A DNA stretch of 64,000 bases. It comes from Escherichia phage A7_1. Position numbers and translations under genes: made by a program. The stretch is from sequence record OP795442. One strand, given 5' to 3'. The notes beneath the pieces are model-generated. The model had not been told where the DNA came from and searched no databases. It was given only the letters and a program-made list of their open reading frames with translations. Position 1 is the first letter of the stretch. Each line of letters starts with the position of its first letter. Positions 10,842-24,640 of this stretch are shown one piece after another.

Positions 10842-10870
10842 TTGACGTGGTGAATCTGGTAGCGTAGTAT
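10842..10870 (+). promoter_or_regulatory. sigma70-like early promoter TTGACG-N17-TAGTAT
   Basis: hexamers read directly. Confidence 0.5.
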
Positions 10871-10927
10871 TCATCTCATCGAACGGCGACATGCCAACAA
10901 GTAAACAAATAAAAGGGCAACAACAAA

Positions 10928-11113
10928 ATGAATAAAAGAATTACAAACGTAAATCCTGGCGAACGTTTCCAACATGAGGGGCATTTGCACACTGTAGTAA
11001 GCAACAAAGAGCATACTGTAAGAGTAAATAGAAATATCTTGCAACTTCGCGATCGTTTTGGTATCGTACAGACTTACACTTTCGAAGCAAATAAAACAGT
11101 TAAAACTTTCTGA
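10928..11113 (+). CDS. hypothetical small protein
   Basis: 61 aa ORF. Confidence 0.45.
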   Translation: MNKRITNVNPGERFQHEGHLHTVVSNKEHTVRVNRNILQLRDRFGIVQTYTFEANKTVKTF

Positions 11114-11124
11114 GGATTTTTAAA

Positions 11125-11460
11125 ATGGCACTAGTCACTAAGTATTTCATTGAAGGCCAGCAAGCGGCGCAACAAGGTTACAGCCGTGTTACTCGTTACA
11201 AGAAAGAAGAAAACAAGATTGAATTTTTCAAGGGTTACGATAGTGTAAACCGTGATGCAATGGTCCTACGCTTCGAATCCGATCCAGTGGGCAAGCCTGT
11301 TACCTCTTACCAGGCATCACCGCAGATTGTTTATGTTGGTACTGTTAAAGAATGTAACGACAAGTTAATCACTTTGAAGCAGGCCGATCGTGCGGGTTAC
11401 TTTGTTGTTTACACTGCTGACGGTAAGCCTTACCAGTACGAAAGCAAATATTTTAAATAA
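11125..11460 (+). CDS. hypothetical protein
   Basis: 111 aa ORF. Confidence 0.55.
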   Translation: MALVTKYFIEGQQAAQQGYSRVTRYKKEENKIEFFKGYDSVNRDAMVLRFESDPVGKPVTSYQASPQIVYVGTVKECNDKLITLKQADRAGYFVVYTADGKPYQYESKYFK

Positions 11461-11466
11461 AAAGTA

Positions 11467-11495
11467 TTGACAGAAAGAAAGAAGTAAATTAAATT
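11467..11495 (+). promoter_or_regulatory. early promoter TTGACA-N17-TAAATT + 5' hairpin
   Basis: followed by GCCGCA-ATCG-TGCGGC hairpin. Confidence 0.45.
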
Positions 11496-11550
11496 ATACC
11501 ACGTAACGCCGCAATCGTGCGGCAATAAAAACTGATAGGAATTGAACAAA

Positions 11551-11763
11551 ATGGCTAAAATCATCATTAAAAAATCCCGTGTATCTTCTGTTGCTCGCGT
11601 CGAAATGGTAAACACTATGCCAGGTTACCGGACTCGCGAGGAAGCCCGAAGCGTTGCAAAACAGATTAAAGCCCGTGGCTTAACTGTAAGTGCACCGACC
11701 AAAACACAAGAAGGATGGAAGGTATCTATTAAATCCGGTACACTGTCAATCAATAAACACTAA
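11551..11763 (+). CDS. hypothetical small basic protein
   Basis: ATG 11551 (track start 11542 is TTG); 70 aa. Confidence 0.5.
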   Translation: MAKIIIKKSRVSSVARVEMVNTMPGYRTREEARSVAKQIKARGLTVSAPTKTQEGWKVSIKSGTLSINKH

Positions 11764-11825
11764 TAGCCAAAACATTAACGGGGCAACTTTGCCCTCATTA
11801 AATAACATTATCCAGGAGTATTAAC

Positions 11826-11984
11826 ATGACTAGCCAAAACACTAACATTGAAAAAATCAACATTACTAAAGAGCGTAAAGCATGGAATGAAACATTAAAT
11901 CTCAAAGGTAAGAAGCTGAATAAAACTAAACGCGATCGCAGTACAAAGCGGGCCTTTTGTGAATTTACAGCGGATCAAGAGTGA
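11826..11984 (+). CDS. hypothetical small basic protein
   Basis: 52 aa, below track cutoff; SD AGGAG. Confidence 0.4.
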   Translation: MTSQNTNIEKINITKERKAWNETLNLKGKKLNKTKRDRSTKRAFCEFTADQE

Positions 11985-12175
11985 TGATTAAAGTTATTGC
12001 ACTTACTGCTTTATTGTGTATACCATTTTTGGCGCACGGTACTAAGTTTTACGGTGCTAACTTGATAGATTGTAAAGCTCATATGCTGGACCATGAAACA
12101 GGCAACAAATTTCTTAAGCCTTTCCAGATCAATCCAGCGGCATTTAGTGACCGGTGTTTTGTATCAGGAAGGTAA
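11984..12175 (+). CDS. hypothetical small protein with N-terminal signal-like helix
   Basis: ATG overlaps upstream TGA; MIKVIALTALLCIPFLAHG. Confidence 0.4.
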   Translation: MIKVIALTALLCIPFLAHGTKFYGANLIDCKAHMLDHETGNKFLKPFQINPAAFSDRCFVSGR

Positions 12176-12288
12176 AGCCAGTACGCTGATAATGCATTAC
12201 GATCCGACAACAAAGAAAGGTAGTCTATCAATCCAGGTTGGAGAGGTGGAAGAGTTTTCCGGTGAAATAGTCTGTAATTAATATCTTG

Positions 12289-12320
12289 AGGCCCGTCATT
12301 GTACGGGCCTTTTTCTTTTA
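12289..12320 (+). terminator. rho-independent terminator
   Basis: AGGCCCG..CGGGCCT hairpin + TTTTCTTTT. Confidence 0.6.
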
Positions 12321-12343
12321 TGAAAATAATTTTGAAAATGTTG

Positions 12344-12371
12344 TTGACAGTAAAATCGATTCTGTTAAGAT
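12344..12371 (+). promoter_or_regulatory. early promoter TTGACA-N16-TAAGAT + hairpin
   Basis: followed by GTATCACAT and ACGGGGA..TCCCCGT hairpin. Confidence 0.5.
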
Positions 12372-12470
12372 GTATCACATCAGGACGGGGAACGAAGTAA
12401 ACACTCCCCGTTAAGTAGTCCAGGAGTAAGACATACGAAAAACTCCCCTGATAAAAAGATTTAAAAGTGG

Positions 12471-12498
12471 TTGACACAAAATTAAAAACTGTTAAGAT
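12471..12498 (+). promoter_or_regulatory. early promoter TTGACA-N16-TAAGAT + hairpin
   Basis: followed by GTATCACAT and GGCGGCAATAGTGCCGCC hairpin (12510-12527). Confidence 0.55.
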
Positions 12499-12547
12499 GT
12501 ATCACATACGGCGGCAATAGTGCCGCCTCCAACAAAGAGAAATTATC

Positions 12548-22796: not shown

Positions 22797-22799
22797 TTA

Positions 22800-23069
22800 T
22801 CTCGTAGGGCAGCGAAGCAGTGATGTAAAGTAGTTACTCTATGATGTAAGTTCTGAGAAGTCGAATCCGATAAAGTATCAGAAAGTTTCTAAGTTTTCGA
22901 ATCGTCCAGATGAAAAAGGCTGGCAAGTGTTGAGAAAGGGCACGTTGAGTAAGTCCTGAACAGGGGCGCTCCTAGACACCTTCTACTGAGATTGCGATCG
23001 AAGTGTTAAACTGTGAGAAACGATAAAGAGTACCAGGAAAGAAAGAAGTAAAAGAAGTGAAAAAGATTG
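22800..23069 (+). ncRNA. candidate non-coding transcript (ORF-free promoter-proximal segment)
   Basis: about 270 nt between promoter 22768 and promoter 23070 with no ORF over 30 codons; inference only. Confidence 0.2.
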
Positions 23070-23099
23070 TTGACACGAAGGTAAGTTTTGTACTATTAT
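23070..23099 (+). promoter_or_regulatory. early promoter TTGACA-N18-TATTAT
   Basis: followed by CTATCTTGTAG. Confidence 0.45.
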
Positions 23100-23143
23100 C
23101 TATCTTGTAGGGCAAACTTCAAAAACATTAAAAAGGGTACAAA

Positions 23144-23419
23144 ATGTTACAGCTTAACGCCAAATTAGACAAAGAAATCACTGAATTTTGGGATATGGTA
23201 GTAGCTACAGATGTTGACGGTGTAGCAAGTCCTTACCTCAACAACATCGAATACCACAATGTTGCTGCAATGAATGCAGAATACGCAGAAGAAGGCGGCG
23301 CGGATAAGTTTGCTAAAAGCAACGGTTTCACTGATGCTAACGACATGATGCAATCAGTATTGTGGCAAGCCCAGGAAGATTTTCAAGAAAAAACCCTTGA
23401 ATTCGCCAGACGTTCATAA
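23144..23419 (+). CDS. hypothetical protein
   Basis: 91 aa ORF. Confidence 0.55.
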   Translation: MLQLNAKLDKEITEFWDMVVATDVDGVASPYLNNIEYHNVAAMNAEYAEEGGADKFAKSNGFTDANDMMQSVLWQAQEDFQEKTLEFARRS

Positions 23420-23471
23420 TAGAATAATCAAACGGGCCGAAAGGCCCACTAACTAACCTAACAGGATTATC

Positions 23472-23744
23472 ATGATGAATCGCATCGACCAATTGAAAGT
23501 AGTTCAGCATATGGCCTACCGTATCCTTGAAGTTCAGAAAGGAAGCAAAAAAGAAGTATGTGAGAAAGCGTACAAGGTATTCAGCCATAAATCTGACGAT
23601 TGGAAGTTGCAGAAAGTCAAAAAGGCCGACATTCTGGGCTATCTTGAAGAAGAGATCCGACTTGCAGACCAAAAACAGATTCGTCGTGATGAGGCTGAAC
23701 ATAACCAGGCTTGGAAAGAATGGTTTAAAGGGTACACTAAGTAA
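23472..23744 (+). CDS. hypothetical protein
   Basis: 90 aa; GGGCC-GAAA-GGCCC hairpin in leader. Confidence 0.55.
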   Translation: MMNRIDQLKVVQHMAYRILEVQKGSKKEVCEKAYKVFSHKSDDWKLQKVKKADILGYLEEEIRLADQKQIRRDEAEHNQAWKEWFKGYTK

Positions 23745-23805
23745 TACTAAAACAGGGGTCATATGGCCCCTTTGTAAATATCCTATTAATTTACAATTTT
23801 CCCTA

Positions 23806-23835
23806 TTGACAGAGAAGTCAGTTTTGCACTATAGT
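23806..23835 (+). promoter_or_regulatory. early promoter TTGACA-N18-TATAGT
   Basis: hexamers read directly. Confidence 0.45.
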
Positions 23836-23875
23836 TAAGTTCCTGGCAGCAAACAACAAAACAAAGGATAATAGC

Positions 23876-24295
23876 ATGAACATCAAATCAACTAATCCAG
23901 CATACTCTTTCGATAACGCCTTTTGTCACGGTAGCGCCGCCAAAGGTTTTGAAATTGATGGTAAACTGGTTATCGTCAATGTTGATGGGGAAGAGGTTGC
24001 AGTTTATCCAGTAGCAGACGTTAAAAGCCGTTTACAATGCCGCATGGATGTTAACGATTATCGCCTTGATCCGGTTCGTGTAGTTGCCCTGGTTCTGGAA
24101 GAGGAAATTAAAGCAATGCAGCACAGCAACAAATTTATCGGCGATGCACAGGACAACATGAAAGTAAGCCGCCACAAAGTTAATGAAGCACTGAAAGATT
24201 TTGGCTTTAAAGATCTAGTTATCAAACGTGATGAAAAATTCCGCTTTCGTAATGATCTGGCAAATCGCTACTATGAAATATATGAAGCACTTTAA
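23876..24295 (+). CDS. hypothetical protein
   Basis: 139 aa ORF. Confidence 0.6.
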   Translation: MNIKSTNPAYSFDNAFCHGSAAKGFEIDGKLVIVNVDGEEVAVYPVADVKSRLQCRMDVNDYRLDPVRVVALVLEEEIKAMQHSNKFIGDAQDNMKVSRHKVNEALKDFGFKDLVIKRDEKFRFRNDLANRYYEIYEAL

Positions 24296-24296
24296 T

Positions 24297-24320
24297 AAAA
24301 AGGCCGCAATAGCGGCCTTT
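24297..24320 (+). terminator. hairpin terminator GGCCGC-AATA-GCGGCC
   Basis: hairpin followed by TTTG; overlaps next promoter. Confidence 0.45.
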
Positions 24321-24325
24321 GTCTA

Positions 24326-24354
24326 TTGACACCTGGTAAGCATTTCTTTAATAT
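24326..24354 (+). promoter_or_regulatory. early promoter TTGACA-N17-TAATAT
   Basis: followed by GTATCTTGTAG. Confidence 0.45.
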
Positions 24355-24406
24355 GTATCTTGTAGGGCAAGCAATAACGCAAGCCTATAAACAGGACAAA
24401 CTAATC

Positions 24407-24604
24407 ATGACCATCGCTAATGAACTGATCGCTGTACTGAATGAAGCCAAATCTAATGATATCGATGTACAGATTAAAGAGTTACCCAATGGTCTGATCG
24501 GTTGTACTTGCACTTGTGTCGGAAGTGACTACACAGAAGTAAGCTCACTAGAATCTTTGATCCGTCACCTCAAGGCGATAGTAGAAGATTGGAGAATCAT
24601 CTAA
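24407..24604 (+). CDS. hypothetical protein
   Basis: 65 aa from ATG 24407; track start 24326 lies in promoter. Confidence 0.45.
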   Translation: MTIANELIAVLNEAKSNDIDVQIKELPNGLIGCTCTCVGSDYTEVSSLESLIRHLKAIVEDWRII

Positions 24605-24610
24605 TCAACA

Positions 24611-24640
24611 AAGGGGCCGCTATTGCGGCCCTTATTATAT
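24611..24640 (+). terminator. terminator ending the plus-strand early block
   Basis: GGGGCCGC-TATT-GCGGCCC hairpin + TTATTAT. Confidence 0.5.

What the first reader, a model, noticed from the sequence alone, without database searches (positions are those of the whole stretch)
10842..24640. Array of about 30 early promoters, each followed by a conserved TATCACRTAG box and GC-rich 5' stem-loop
Across 14 kb nearly every small ORF has its own near-consensus sigma70 promoter. Directly after the -10, most copies carry a G/TATCACA/GTAG-like element and then a 6-8 bp GC stem with an AATAG-type loop (GGCGGCAATAGTGCCGCC, GCGGGAATAGTTCCCGC, GCGGGGAATGGCCCCGC and variants). The hairpins have no T-run, so they are not terminators; they would sit at the 5' end of each early mRNA. 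In two promoters (15560, 18315) the stem overlaps the -10. This is a repeated regulatory module: possibly an mRNA-stabilising cap, a binding site for a phage shut-off or RNA-binding protein, or a pause signal. I cannot match it to a described family from memory.
Basis: seen in the sequence. Interest (0 to 1): 0.75.

Follow-up and report, generated by a model that had tools for sequence, protein, structure and literature searches.

The report
Phage early promoter–hairpin gene cassettes
A 14-kb stretch of an rV5-like E. coli phage holds about 31 strong host-type promoters, most followed by a small GC hairpin at the start of the transcript; these units closely resemble the known "PeSL" promoter/stem-loop cassettes of T4-like phages and mark the points where related phages gain, lose and swap small genes.

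Summary
On the + strand of 10842-24386 I count 31 sigma70-type promoters. There are 23 sites at >=10/12 against 3.2+-1.7 in shuffles. Eighteen carry the box nTATCACATAGGG, against a 0.27% background. Seventeen to twenty are followed by a GC hairpin with no T-run that starts 10-15 nt after the -10.

The arms covary, and the loops evolve faster than the stems.

The box is not a separate element. It is the promoter's discriminator plus start site, 6/7 identical to T7 promoter A3, whose annotated start is the A after CAC. It then runs into the G-rich 5' arm. The hairpin would therefore begin at about +4 to +6 of each early mRNA.

The window is a Vequintavirinae phage, 98% identical to phage A5-4. 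The closest described family is the PeSL (promoter-early stem-loop) cassettes of T4-like phages. The shared features are the strong promoter with an A-rich upstream region, the G(n)-loop-C(n) stem, the position before small genes of unknown function, and the role as recombination joint. Sixteen of 20 homology breakpoints against four relatives fall in modules.

It differs in phage family and in the fixed position of the hairpin inside the leader.

The same module occurs in Phapecoctavirus/phi92-like phages and, as a variant, in jumbo phage PBECO4. What the hairpin does is inferred, not shown; a 5' mRNA stabiliser is most likely. This is a new variant of a known kind, of moderate interest.

The parts
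10842..10895 (+). M1: promoter TTGACG-17-TAGTAT, first + strand early promoter. It has no real hairpin (3 bp only) and a box score of 7/12.
10753..10807 (-). Divergent promoter TTGCCA-17-TATAGT (10807-10779) with a leader hairpin (10770-10753) starting 10 nt after the -10. It serves ORF 10452-10730(-).
10421..10449 (-). Promoter TTGACA-17-CATAAT with the hairpin GGCCCCGCCAGGGGCC (10441-10426) in the spacer and over the -10. This is the RB49-type PeSL geometry.
11467..11523 (+). M2: promoter TTGACA/TAAATT, box 9/12, hairpin GCCGCAATCGTGCGGC at 11508-11523.
12344..12412 (+). M3: promoter TTGACA/TAAGAT, box 10/12, 7-8 bp hairpin with a 13-nt loop (12384-12412). No ORF follows, so this looks like a decayed cassette.
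12471..12527 (+). M4: promoter TTGACA/TAAGAT, box 11/12, hairpin GGCGGCAATAGTGCCGCC at 12510-12527. Predicted start is A12506.
12819..12837 (+). Hairpin GGCGGGATTAGTTCCCGCC between two genes, with no promoter: a 'half module'.
13148..13209 (+). M5: TTGCAA/TATAAT, leader ATCGAGAGCGGG (like the T7 A1 start), hairpin 13190-13206. Predicted start is A13183.
13465..13527 (+). M6: TTGCAA/TATAAT, hairpin GGGGAGAAATGATTCTCCCC at 13505-13524.
13682..13738 (+). M7: TTGACA/TAAACT, box 12/12, hairpin GGCGGCAATAGCGCCGCC at 13721-13738.
14001..14047 (+). M8: TTGACT/CATAAT with no hairpin. It is the left copy of a direct module repeat that flanks the cassette gene 14062-14274.
14294..14340 (+). M9: TTGACA/CATAAT with no hairpin. 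It is the right copy of the repeat. A73, UPEC06 and LTH01 have one hybrid module (left part of M8 plus right part of M9) and lack the cassette.
14625..14682 (+). M10: TTGACA/TAAATT, box 9/12, hairpin GGCGGGGAATGGCCCCGCT at 14664-14682.
15051..15110 (+). M11: TTGACT/TAAGAT, hairpin GGGGGAAACATCTTCCCCC at 15092-15110. The box is poor (6/12).
15560..15598 (+). M12: TTGACT/TAGTAT with a 9-bp hairpin (15573-15598) whose loop contains the -10. This is the PeSL 'overlapping -10' geometry.
16368..16396 (+). M13: weak promoter TTGCAT/TATATT (8/12), with no box and no hairpin.
16749..16808 (+). M14: near-duplicate of M10, hairpin 16788-16806.
17209..17269 (+). M15: TTGACA/TAAACG (the -10 lacks the final T), box 10/12, 9-bp hairpin 17249-17269.
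17522..17581 (+). M16: TTGCAA/TATAAT, box 9/12, hairpin GGCGGGGAGTGTTTCCCCGCC at 17561-17581 (-17.7 kcal/mol). It holds the left end of the W70 deletion.
17786..17814 (+). M17: TTGACG/TAATCT, no hairpin.
18315..18351 (+). M18: TTGACG/TATAAT with the hairpin TGCCGT...ACGGCA (18329-18351) whose loop contains the -10.
18796..18848 (+). M19: TTGCAA/TATAGT, weak 4-bp GGGC/GCCC hairpin at 18835-18848 (-8.4 kcal/mol).
19202..19249 (+). M20: TTTACA/TACAAT, only a 3-bp stem.
19514..19569 (+). M21: TTGACA/TAGTAT, hairpin GGGGCGACAAGCGCCCC at 19553-19569.
19862..19918 (+). M22: TTGACA/TAAAGT, box 10/12, bulged hairpin 19900-19918 (-7.8 kcal/mol).
20079..20140 (+). M23: TTGACA/TAGAAT, box 11/12, GGGCG/CGCCC stem with a long loop at 20117-20140 (-15.0 kcal/mol).
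20669..20723 (+). M24: TTGACA/CAAGAT, box 12/12, hairpin GGGGCGATAAACGCCCC at 20707-20723.
21295..21353 (+). M25: TTGACG/TATAGT, box 12/12, 8-bp hairpin 21334-21353 with an internal G.U. Predicted start is A21331.
21550..21608 (+). M26: TTGACA/TAATAT, hairpin GGGCGGCAATGTTGCCGCTC at 21587-21606.
22049..22100 (+). M27: TTGACA/TAATAT, box 12/12, 5-bp hairpin 22087-22100.
22768..22812 (+). M28: TTGACA/TATTAT, box 11/12, no hairpin. About 270 nt without an ORF follow.
23070..23112 (+). M29: TTGACA-18-TATTAT, box 10/12, no hairpin.
23806..23835 (+). M30: TTGACA-18-TATAGT, no box and no hairpin.
24326..24386 (+). M31: TTGACA/TAATAT, box 10/12, interrupted weak hairpin 24365-24386 (-7.6 kcal/mol).
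58109..58163 (-). Isolated copy of the architecture outside the array: TTGACA-17-TATTAT, then the hairpin GGGAGCAATTAGCTCCC starting 10 nt after the -10.
12288..12320 (+). Canonical intrinsic terminator (9-bp stem plus T-run) inside the array. It shows what a real terminator looks like in this phage.
16085..16116 (+). Canonical terminator-like hairpin with a T-rich tail.
22602..22627 (+). Terminator-like GGGCT...AGCCC stem followed by TTTTTT.
   Evidence: read from the sequence
24299..24320 (+). Terminator-like hairpin AAAGGCCGCAATAGCGGCCTTT, directly upstream of M31.
24612..24633 (+). Hairpin AGGGGCCGCTATTGCGGCCCTT that closes the array. It is also read as a terminator on the - strand.

Best explanation
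This is an array of PeSL-type 'promoter-early stem-loop' cassettes in the hyperplastic early region of a Vequintavirinae (rV5-like) coliphage.

Each unit consists of:
- an A-rich UP-like tract;
- a near-consensus sigma70 promoter;
- a T7-A3-like discriminator and start (GTATCAC-A);
- a transcribed GC hairpin with a purine-rich 5' arm and no U-tract;
- an A-rich leader with a ribosome-binding site;
- one to three small ORFs of unknown function.

What is shown:
(1) Promoter, box and hairpin are enriched far above chance and have a fixed geometry.
(2) The stem is kept by compensatory change while its sequence drifts.
(3) The modules are the joints at which close relatives differ by whole cassettes. 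One case is a cassette flanked by direct module repeats, with the crossover inside the shared module sequence.
(4) The same module is shared by taxonomically separate coliphage groups.

What is inferred:
(a) Host RNA polymerase starts at the A eight nt after the -10, so every early mRNA begins with 3-5 free nucleotides followed by the hairpin.
(b) This hairpin acts mainly at the RNA level as a 5'-terminal stabiliser that hinders 5'-end-dependent RNase E attack. In read-through transcripts it would act as a 3' exonuclease barrier for the preceding cistron. I put this function at about 40-45%.
(c) Homologous recombination between modules excises, inserts and swaps cassettes, as proposed for PeSLs.
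For: Enrichment and geometry. Across 8 phage sources, 73 of the 75 hairpins found after strong promoter-like sites start 9-16 nt after the -10, with 39 distinct hairpin sequences.

Structure selection:
- Native 5'/3' halves fold at -12.4 kcal/mol against -8.0 for swapped halves, and 0 of 300 re-pairings reach the native value.
- On the covariance-model alignment, 90.7% of cells are paired against 83.3% shuffled, and the covariation score is 0.147 against 0.078, with 0 of 500 shuffles as high.
- Against orthologues, the substitution rate is 3.6% in stems, 5.9% in flanks and 7.5% in loops, with compensatory A-T to G-C and G.U to G-C or A-U changes.

Sense-strand polarity: about 84% purines on the 5' arm. 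Internal G.U pairs outnumber A.C mismatches 9 to 1.

Start site: T7 A3 reads TACGAT-GTACCAC-A(+1) and T7 A1 reads ...-A(+1)TCGAGAGGGA in the annotated T7 record. The window has TAAGAT-GTATCAC-A-TAGGG and TATAAT-GTTTTAC-A-TCGAGAGCGGG.

Not terminators: no T-runs follow the module hairpins, and real T-run terminators exist in the same region.

Cassette joints: 16 of 20 breakpoint clusters against A73, UPEC06, LTH01 and W70 fall in a module footprint covering 18% of the region (P = 3.5e-9). Homology with PBECO4 and tuntematon is piecemeal, order-shuffled and bounded by modules.

Described family: PMC2839356 and PMC4122927.

Framework for 5'-end-dependent decay: PMC3997798.
Against: - No transcription start, RNA half-life or recombination measurement exists for this phage group in the literature I could search.
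- Three to five unpaired 5' nucleotides may still admit RppH or RNase E, so protection could be partial.
- Eight to ten promoters in the array work, or at least persist, without any hairpin.
- In RB49 the homologous hairpins lie inside the promoter and are not transcribed from it, so a 5'-cap role cannot be the ancestral or general function of PeSL stem-loops.
- The PeSL authors measured terminator-like activity for such a stem-loop.
- The breakpoint test is confounded, because breakpoints of viable recombinants would fall in intergenic DNA anyway, and modules fill most of that DNA.
- The wobble and covariation counts include copies related by descent.
Confidence: 0.7

Rival explanations
1. 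Classical PeSL reading. The stem-loop acts on transcription coming from the upstream cassette, as a terminator, attenuator or insulator, so that each cassette is expressed from its own promoter only.
For: Arbiol et al. report that the stem-loop of PeSL211/210, placed between a strong promoter and lacZ, lowered expression about as much as rrnB T1. That RB49 stem-loop (AGGGGATCACGTATCCCCT, then ATACT) also lacks a T-run. A promoter-less hairpin sits between two genes at 12819.
Against: Here the hairpin lies downstream of its own start site, so it would attenuate its own transcript equally. There is no U-tract. Canonical T-run terminators are used in the same region (12288, 16085, 22602, 24299). 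The fixed distance from the -10 is not needed for this role.
Confidence: 0.17
2. The start-site box plus hairpin is a recognition element for a phage-encoded or injected factor. Candidates are a repressor that shuts off early promoters by sitting over -6 to +20, or an RNA-binding protein that marks, protects or silences early mRNAs.
For: The box is conserved well above the spacer. It sits exactly over the start site. The module is conserved across three phage lineages. The 5' arm consensus GGGCGG and AATAG/AATGG-type loops recur.
Against: The discriminator and start are explained by similarity to T7 A1 and A3. There are 39 distinct hairpins and about 20 different loops. The box has no dyad symmetry. 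No candidate protein was identified, and all neighbouring ORFs belong to families of unknown function.
Confidence: 0.1
3. The hairpin matters only as DNA. It would be a cruciform or hairpin-forming hot spot, or simply a homology patch, that drives recombination. Its fixed place after the promoter would then reflect descent from a few founder modules copied by recombination.
For: Breakpoints lie in modules. Near-identical module pairs exist (M10/M14, M8/M9, M3/M4). The PeSL authors speculate about a DNA-binding recombination protein for the GGGG...CCCC motif.
Against: The geometry is retained through 39 divergent stem sequences and unrelated spacers. Polarity is strong (purine 5' arm), and sense-strand G.U is tolerated while A.C is not. 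M8/M9 recombined without any hairpin.
Confidence: 0.08
4. The hairpin is a promoter-proximal pause or escape signal that couples transcription to ribosome loading.
For: The hairpin forms when the polymerase is about 30-35 nt from the start, just before the ribosome-binding site emerges.
Against: No sequence is conserved downstream of the hairpin, where a pause site would lie (columns +27 to +45 carry <=0.35 bits and are merely A-rich). The distance from hairpin to start codon varies.
Confidence: 0.04
5. The pattern is a chance co-occurrence of GC-rich inverted repeats and promoter-like AT-rich strings.
For: None beyond the general abundance of weak promoter-like matches (42.7 expected at 9/12).
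Against: all reject it by orders of magnitude.
Confidence: 0.01

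Closest known systems
PeSLs (promoter-early stem-loops) of T4-like phages RB49/phi1, PST/T4 and nt-1/KVP40 (Arbiol et al. 2010, PMC2839356; Comeau et al. 2014, PMC4122927)
   Same: - Near-consensus sigma70 promoter with an AT-rich upstream tract.
- G(n)-loop-C(n) stem-loop.
- Dozens of copies, concentrated in a hyperplastic region in front of small ORFs of unknown function.
- Copies lie at the indel and replacement junctions between close relatives.
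- Cassettes are flanked by direct module repeats.
- Degraded 'half' copies occur.
- Three copies in the window (10441-, 15560, 18315) even have the RB49 geometry.
   Different: - The host phage is Vequintavirinae, not Straboviridae.
- In about 20 copies the stem-loop is downstream of the start site, at a fixed 10-15 nt after the -10. This is not among the five RB49/phi1 positions, nor the upstream position seen in PST and nt-1.
- The start-site box is strongly conserved.
- Terminator activity and mini-circles were not tested here.
The repeated 20-mer annotated as 'putative promoter determined with PHIRE' in the phAPEC8 GenBank record JX561091 (Phapecoctavirus)
   Same: It is the same element: RTAGGGCGGCAATGGTGCCG, directly after a 'putative host dependent promoter determined with MEME'.
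   Different: There it is labelled as a promoter in its own right. It is in fact the start of the leader plus most of the hairpin, lying downstream of the sigma70 promoter.
5'-terminal stabilising stem-loops of E. coli mRNAs (ompA, papA; Emory, Bouvet and Belasco 1992, cited in PMC3997798)
   Same: A stem-loop close to the 5' end whose sequence is unimportant but whose pairing matters, set within the known 5'-end dependence of RNase E.
   Different: Only the position is inferred here. Half-life was not measured. Three to five unpaired nucleotides precede the stem, and my recollection that 2-4 is the tolerated limit comes from memory and was not checked.
T7 major early promoters A1 and A3
   Same: The discriminator and start are alike. 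T7 A3 has GTACCAC-A against GTATCAC-A here. The T7 A1 start ATCGAGAGGG matches ATCGAGAGCGGG at 13183. In both T7 promoters +1 is the 8th nt after the -10.
   Different: This is a sequence resemblance used to place the start site, not a claim of homology.
sigma70-like early promoter arrays reported for rV5 and Certrevirus (PMC3606486, PMC7344957)
   Same: The same subfamily, with many consensus promoters carrying UP-like tracts, concentrated in a region of short hypothetical ORFs.
   Different: In the passages I read, those papers do not mention the start-site box, the leader hairpin or a role in cassette exchange.
Morons and integron cassettes
   Same: Self-contained, promoter-bearing gene units that move between genomes.
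   Different: No integrase and no attC-type site are involved. Exchange appears to use homology between the regulatory modules themselves (for the authors' own comparison).

Membership tests
PeSL cassettes | Strong sigma70-like early promoter with an AT-rich upstream region | tested here: met
   There are 23 sites at >=10/12 against 3.2 expected. The A-rich tract spans -48 to -32 relative to the -10 end.
PeSL cassettes | Adjacent stable stem-loop, typically G(n)-loop-C(n) | tested here: met
   Seventeen to twenty of the 31 have one. About 84% of 5'-arm bases are purines, and typical stems are GGGCGG/CCGCCC.
PeSL cassettes | Stem-loop placed within, overlapping or upstream of the promoter, or just before the start site (the described subclasses) | tested here: inconclusive
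   Three copies fit (10441-, 15560, 18315). About 20 have the stem after the predicted start, a position not described.
PeSL cassettes | Concentrated in a hyperplastic region, in front of ORFans | tested here: met
   All tested ORFs fall in PHROG families of unknown function. The record of the 98%-identical relative A5-4 lists only hypothetical proteins across this region. Outside the array only 2 of 37 strong promoter-like sites have the hairpin.
PeSL cassettes | Located at insertion, deletion and replacement junctions between close relatives, with the crossover in the motif | tested here: met
   Sixteen of 20 breakpoint clusters lie in modules. There is an M8/M9 hybrid module in three relatives and an M4-M5 deletion in A73. 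Caveat: breakpoints are confounded with intergenic location.
PeSL cassettes | The stem-loop is an effective transcription terminator or attenuator | not testable with these tools
   By sequence alone there is no T-run and no terminator-scan hit.
PeSL cassettes | Formation of PeSL mini-circles | not testable with these tools
   This needs PCR or sequencing of infected cells or virions.
PeSL cassettes | Host genome is a T4-like myovirus | tested here: not met
   The closest records are Vequintavirinae.
Intrinsic (Rho-independent) terminators | GC-rich hairpin followed by a U-run | tested here: not met
   The 8 nt after the module hairpins hold 0-3 T. True terminators in the same region have >=5.
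5'-terminal mRNA-stabilising stem-loop | Hairpin within a few nucleotides of the primary 5' end | tested here: inconclusive
   It is met only if the start is the A eight nt after the -10, as in T7 A1 and A3. No start-site data exist.
5'-terminal mRNA-stabilising stem-loop | Pairing matters, not sequence | tested here: met
   Covariation and the chimera test support this.
5'-terminal mRNA-stabilising stem-loop | Prolongs mRNA half-life in an RNase E- or RppH-dependent way | not testable with these tools
   Needs an experiment.
Any Rfam family | A match to a curated covariance model | tested here: not met
   No gathering-score hits in the window. In the region the only hit at E<=1 is a chance Trp_leader match on a terminator.

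The most novel reading that the evidence does not exclude
The leader-hairpin module could be a common 'adaptor' shared by unrelated large coliphages (Vequintavirinae, Stephanstirmvirinae and jumbo Asteriusvirus). Small early genes would then be traded across phage families as ready-to-express cassettes. Its conserved start box and 5' hairpin would also be a cis-signal that sets phage early mRNAs apart from host mRNAs, either as protection during phage-induced host mRNA decay or as recognition by a phage factor.
Probability: 0.15. Interest if true: 0.7.

Novelty: new variant of a known kind. Interest (0 to 1): 0.42.

Why it matters
PeSLs were proposed as the physical 'linkers' of modular phage evolution, but they were documented only in T4-like phages. 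The authors themselves said there was no evidence for them elsewhere.

Here an equivalent system operates in another myovirus subfamily. The same module recurs in two further lineages. Junctions show recombination inside the module.

This suggests that promoter/stem-loop cassettes are a general device for acquiring and expressing accessory early genes. Such genes are the likely home of host-takeover and anti-defence functions.

The fixed position of the hairpin in the leader also gives a clean, testable case for a 5' RNA element used by a whole class of phage early transcripts. The modules are compact and strong, so they could serve as self-contained expression parts.

On the practical side, annotation pipelines currently mislabel the hairpin as a promoter (phAPEC8) or ignore it.

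Tried and rejected
- Rfam, at gathering scores on the whole window and by E-value on the region: nothing relevant.
- MAFFT alignment of the modules (A1): not structure-aware, so I did not use it for pair counts.
- G.T wobble at the stem ends within the window alone did not separate the strands. A larger multi-phage count of internal positions did, weakly.
- Literature searches for start-site or transcriptome data on Vequintavirinae, Phapecoctavirus or Asteriusvirus: none found. The phAPEC8 genome note is not held in the library.
- The Srd lead. The rV5 paper calls gp11 a probable Srd homologue, and T4 Srd stimulates RNase E on host mRNA (PMC4980113). That would give 5' hairpins a rationale. 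However, tblastn with T4 Srd finds nothing in the window, and none of the 60 phage hits listed is labelled Vequintavirinae or has an rV5-like genome size. This is a dead end with these tools.
- The ORF-less transcript after promoter 22768 as a structured RNA: folding z = +1.23, so it is not structured.
- Terminator reading: rejected on sequence grounds (no T-run).
- T7-RNA-polymerase-promoter resemblance (CACATAGGG against CACTATAGGG): considered and dropped. The upstream specificity region is absent and the spacing differs. I did not test it further.
- Resemblance of TATCAC to the lambda operator half-site: judged coincidental, because there is no dyad.

Full report
**What the window is.** Megablast places the region in Escherichia phage A5-4 at 98-99% identity. 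More distant relatives are A73, UPEC06, LTH01 and W70. All are roughly 140-kb myoviruses filed under Vequintavirinae (rV5-like). The A5-4 record annotates every gene under the finding as a hypothetical protein. Ten ORFs from the region that I scanned each hit a PHROG family of unknown function; one also has a weak second match to a family annotated DNA ligase (E = 1.5e-08). Genes run on the + strand up to about 24.6 kb. From about 26 kb they run on the - strand, and the GC skew turns there.

**Checking the observation.** I curated 31 sigma70-type promoters in the gaps between small ORFs on the + strand from 10842 to 24354.
- *Promoters.* At >=10/12 matches there are 23 sites on the + strand of the region. 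Dinucleotide shuffles give 3.2+-1.7, and the - strand has 1.
- *Box.* Aligned on the -10, an A-rich tract precedes the -35. Columns +2 to +16 read TATYWCATAGGGCGG at 0.35-0.8 bits each, while the spacer between the hexamers is almost uninformative. Eighteen of 31 promoters match the box at >=9/12, against 0.27% of all positions. The seven >=11/12 matches in the whole window all sit right after a -10 in this region.
- *Hairpins.* With a strict finder, 15 of 31 promoters have a GC hairpin starting 10-15 nt after the -10, and the whole + strand holds only 66 such hairpins. Seventeen of 31 predicted leaders fold at <= -10 kcal/mol, against 4-9% of random windows.
- *No T-runs.* None of these hairpins has a T-run. 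True terminators with T-runs occur in the same region at 12288, 16085, 22602, 24299 and 24612.

The one adjustment is that 'most copies' means about 55-65%.

**Is the structure selected?**
- The stems differ in sequence (16 different 5' arms among 18 copies) yet stay complementary. Natural 5' and 3' halves fold at a mean of -12.4 kcal/mol, and swapping halves between copies gives -8.0. None of 300 random re-pairings reaches the native mean.
- A covariance model built from one subtype finds 14 + strand copies. All lie inside 11.5-24.4 kb, and no convincing copy lies elsewhere in the window.
- On its alignment, 90.7% of cells pair against 83.3% in shuffles. Four of eight pairs show double changes. 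The covariation score is 0.147 against 0.078, with 0 of 500 shuffles as high.
- Against orthologues in five relatives, stems change less (3.6%) than flanks (5.9%) or loops (7.5%). Clear compensatory cases are A-T to G-C in M15, and G.U to G-C or A-U in M10.
- The stems have polarity: about 84% purines on the 5' arm.
- Internal G.U pairs on the sense strand outnumber A.C mismatches, which would be G.U on the other strand, by 9 to 1. This favours sense-strand RNA, but the copies are not independent.

**What the 'box' is.** The annotated T7 record gives the starts of the major early promoters. A3 is TACGAT-GTACCAC-A(+1)TGAAACG, and A1 is GATACT-TACAGCC-A(+1)TCGAGAGGGA. In both, +1 is the eighth nucleotide after the -10. 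The commonest module here reads TAAGAT-GTATCAC-A-TAGGGCGG, so the discriminator is 6/7 identical to A3. Module M5 reads TATAAT-GTTTTAC-A-TCGAGAGCGGG, which is the A1 start.

The box is therefore the discriminator and initiating nucleotides of a strong coliphage early promoter, running into the G-rich 5' arm of the stem. By this analogy transcripts start at the A of CAC-A-TAG. The hairpin then begins at +4 to +6, and the ribosome-binding site follows 14-27 nt after the stem. This start site is inferred. I found no 5'-end data for these phage groups.

**The surroundings and relatives.** Blastn of the region against A73, UPEC06, LTH01 and W70 breaks into blocks. Of the 20 clusters of block ends, 16 fall within a module, and modules cover 18% of the region (P = 3.5e-9).

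Two junctions were examined base by base.
- The gene at 14062-14274 is flanked by two nearly identical modules, M8 and M9. A73, UPEC06 and LTH01 lack the gene and carry a single hybrid module: M8 on the left and M9 on the right, with the crossover inside the shared CATAATAACTTTTATCAAG.
- A73 also lacks the two genes between M4 and M5.

A caveat applies. Viable breakpoints would fall in intergenic DNA anyway, and modules fill most of it.

One large W70 deletion (17537 to 24175) used a 9-nt microhomology instead. Its left end is in a module and its right end is inside an ORF.

**Beyond the close relatives.** The same rules were applied to other phages.
- Phapecoctavirus tuntematon (Stephanstirmvirinae): the box occurs in 15 and the hairpin in 16 of 23 strong promoters.
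- Jumbo phage PBECO4 (Asteriusvirus): a variant, TTGCAA-N16-TATAAT-gTTTTACATCAGG plus hairpin, occurs in 16 of 29.
- Pooling eight sources, 73 of 75 post-promoter hairpins start 9-16 nt after the -10.
- A 59-nt module query finds 149 phage records, including phi92, phAPEC8, FV3, phiTE and 121Q.
- Individual ORFs of the window are shared with PBECO4 and tuntematon at 72-92% identity. They appear in shuffled order, with block ends at modules.
- In the phAPEC8 GenBank record the hairpin 20-mer is annotated as a 'putative promoter determined with PHIRE', directly after a 'host dependent promoter'. The repeat has therefore been seen before, but it was mislabelled.

**Comparison with what is known.** The closest family is the PeSL of T4-like phages. 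PeSLs combine a consensus sigma70 promoter with an AT-rich upstream region and a G(n)-loop-C(n) stem-loop. About 50 copies per genome are concentrated in hyperplastic regions before ORFans, and they lie at the indel junctions between close relatives. They were proposed to act as linkers for modular shuffling through mini-circles.

I read true PeSLs in RB49. There the stem fills the -35/-10 spacer or spans the -10, and the sequence after the -10 is aCACACATaccgAAACGA, which shares the CACAT start context. Three copies in this window (10441 on the - strand, 15560 and 18315) have that geometry. About 20 have the stem in the transcribed leader, a position not among the described subclasses.

The host phage is not T4-like. 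Terminator activity and mini-circles could not be tested here.

The rV5 and Certrevirus papers report arrays of consensus early promoters. In the passages I read they do not mention the box, the hairpin or cassette exchange.

**How it most likely works.** Shown: the anatomy, its enrichment, selection for pairing, and the location of the modules at cassette junctions.

Inferred:
- Host polymerase fires from each module soon after infection.
- Each mRNA carries a 5' hairpin after 3-5 free nucleotides.
- This hairpin hinders 5'-end-dependent decay. RNase E prefers accessible 5' ends, and 5' stem-loops are known to stabilise E. coli mRNAs (PMC3997798).
- In read-through transcripts the same hairpin would protect the 3' side of the preceding cistron.
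- Recombination between modules adds, removes and swaps cassettes.

I put about 0.7 on the overall identification as a PeSL-type cassette array with a transcribed hairpin. Within that, I put about 0.4-0.45 on RNA stabilisation as the hairpin's main job.

The main rival is the attenuator/insulator function measured for an RB49 stem-loop. It fits poorly here, because the stem would act on its own transcript and has no U-tract. A protein-recognition role is not excluded, but the stems and loops are very diverse. A pause signal lacks any conserved downstream sequence.

**Verdict.** The finding is real and well bounded. It is not an unknown class. It is a leader-hairpin variant of PeSL cassettes, in a phage family where they had not been described in the literature I could search, and it is shared with two other coliphage lineages. 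Interest is moderate at 0.42.

Noticed in passing
window 24640-26500: An ORF-poor stretch lies where + strand early genes meet - strand genes and the GC skew turns. It holds short direct repeats (24787/25133, 24839/25269, tandem 21-mers at 26065/26086, and 26169/26198) and a 21-nt inverted repeat (24876-24896 / 24960-24980). The rV5 paper draws a 'non-coding' box on its map. This may be an origin or some other cis region.
   Followed up: partly
window 22768-23070: Promoter M28 (box 11/12, no hairpin) is followed by about 270 nt with no ORF of 34 aa or more before the next promoter. As RNA it is not unusually structured (z = +1.23), and it has no Rfam match. It is partly conserved in tuntematon at 76%.
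   Followed up: partly
window 12344-12470: Promoter M3 and its hairpin are followed by about 100 nt without an ORF. The sequence ccaggagtaagacATAcg resembles the ribosome-binding site and start of the gene at 17290, but with ATG changed to ATA. This is probably a decayed cassette.
   Followed up: no
window 12548-12799 and 14366-14605: Two paralogous small genes are about 70% identical at the DNA level; the first was scanned and falls in phrog_871. Each has its own module. Related copies occur twice in PBECO4 (L006 2403-2642 and 4451-4690).
   Followed up: partly
window 17525-17533 and 24175-24183; L005 (W70) 15422-15434: W70 lacks about 6.6 kb (17537 to 24175). The junction uses the microhomology CAAAGTTAA and creates a fused ORF (W70_1). 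This is illegitimate recombination, not module-mediated on the right side.
   Followed up: partly
window 2959-3025: Promoter TTGACA-17-TAATAT is followed immediately (1 nt after the -10) by an 11-bp hairpin and a T-run. A terminator-like structure therefore sits on the start site.
   Followed up: no
window 60907, 55064, 54839 and 29348 (- strand): A nearly identical terminator hairpin, AACCGCCCTTCGGGGCGGTT, recurs after - strand genes. Most copies are followed by a T-run.
   Followed up: no
search hits: Several records labelled 'Campylobacter phage' (for example MG065645, MG065650, MG065674) and 'Acinetobacter phage vB_AbaM_ABPW7' match these E. coli phage groups at 81-97% identity. The host labels look doubtful.
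   Followed up: no
window 3524-5062: A 512-aa ORF matches the PHROG HNH endonuclease family. An ATPase (1725-2954) and a metal-dependent phosphohydrolase (561-1124) lie just upstream of the early array.
   Followed up: partly
L008 (phAPEC8) 2755-2774, 3394-3413, 4283-4302, 5299-5318: GenBank 'promoter' features derived from PHIRE are actually the start of the leader plus the hairpin of the module. This is an annotation error that is likely to have propagated.
   Followed up: yes
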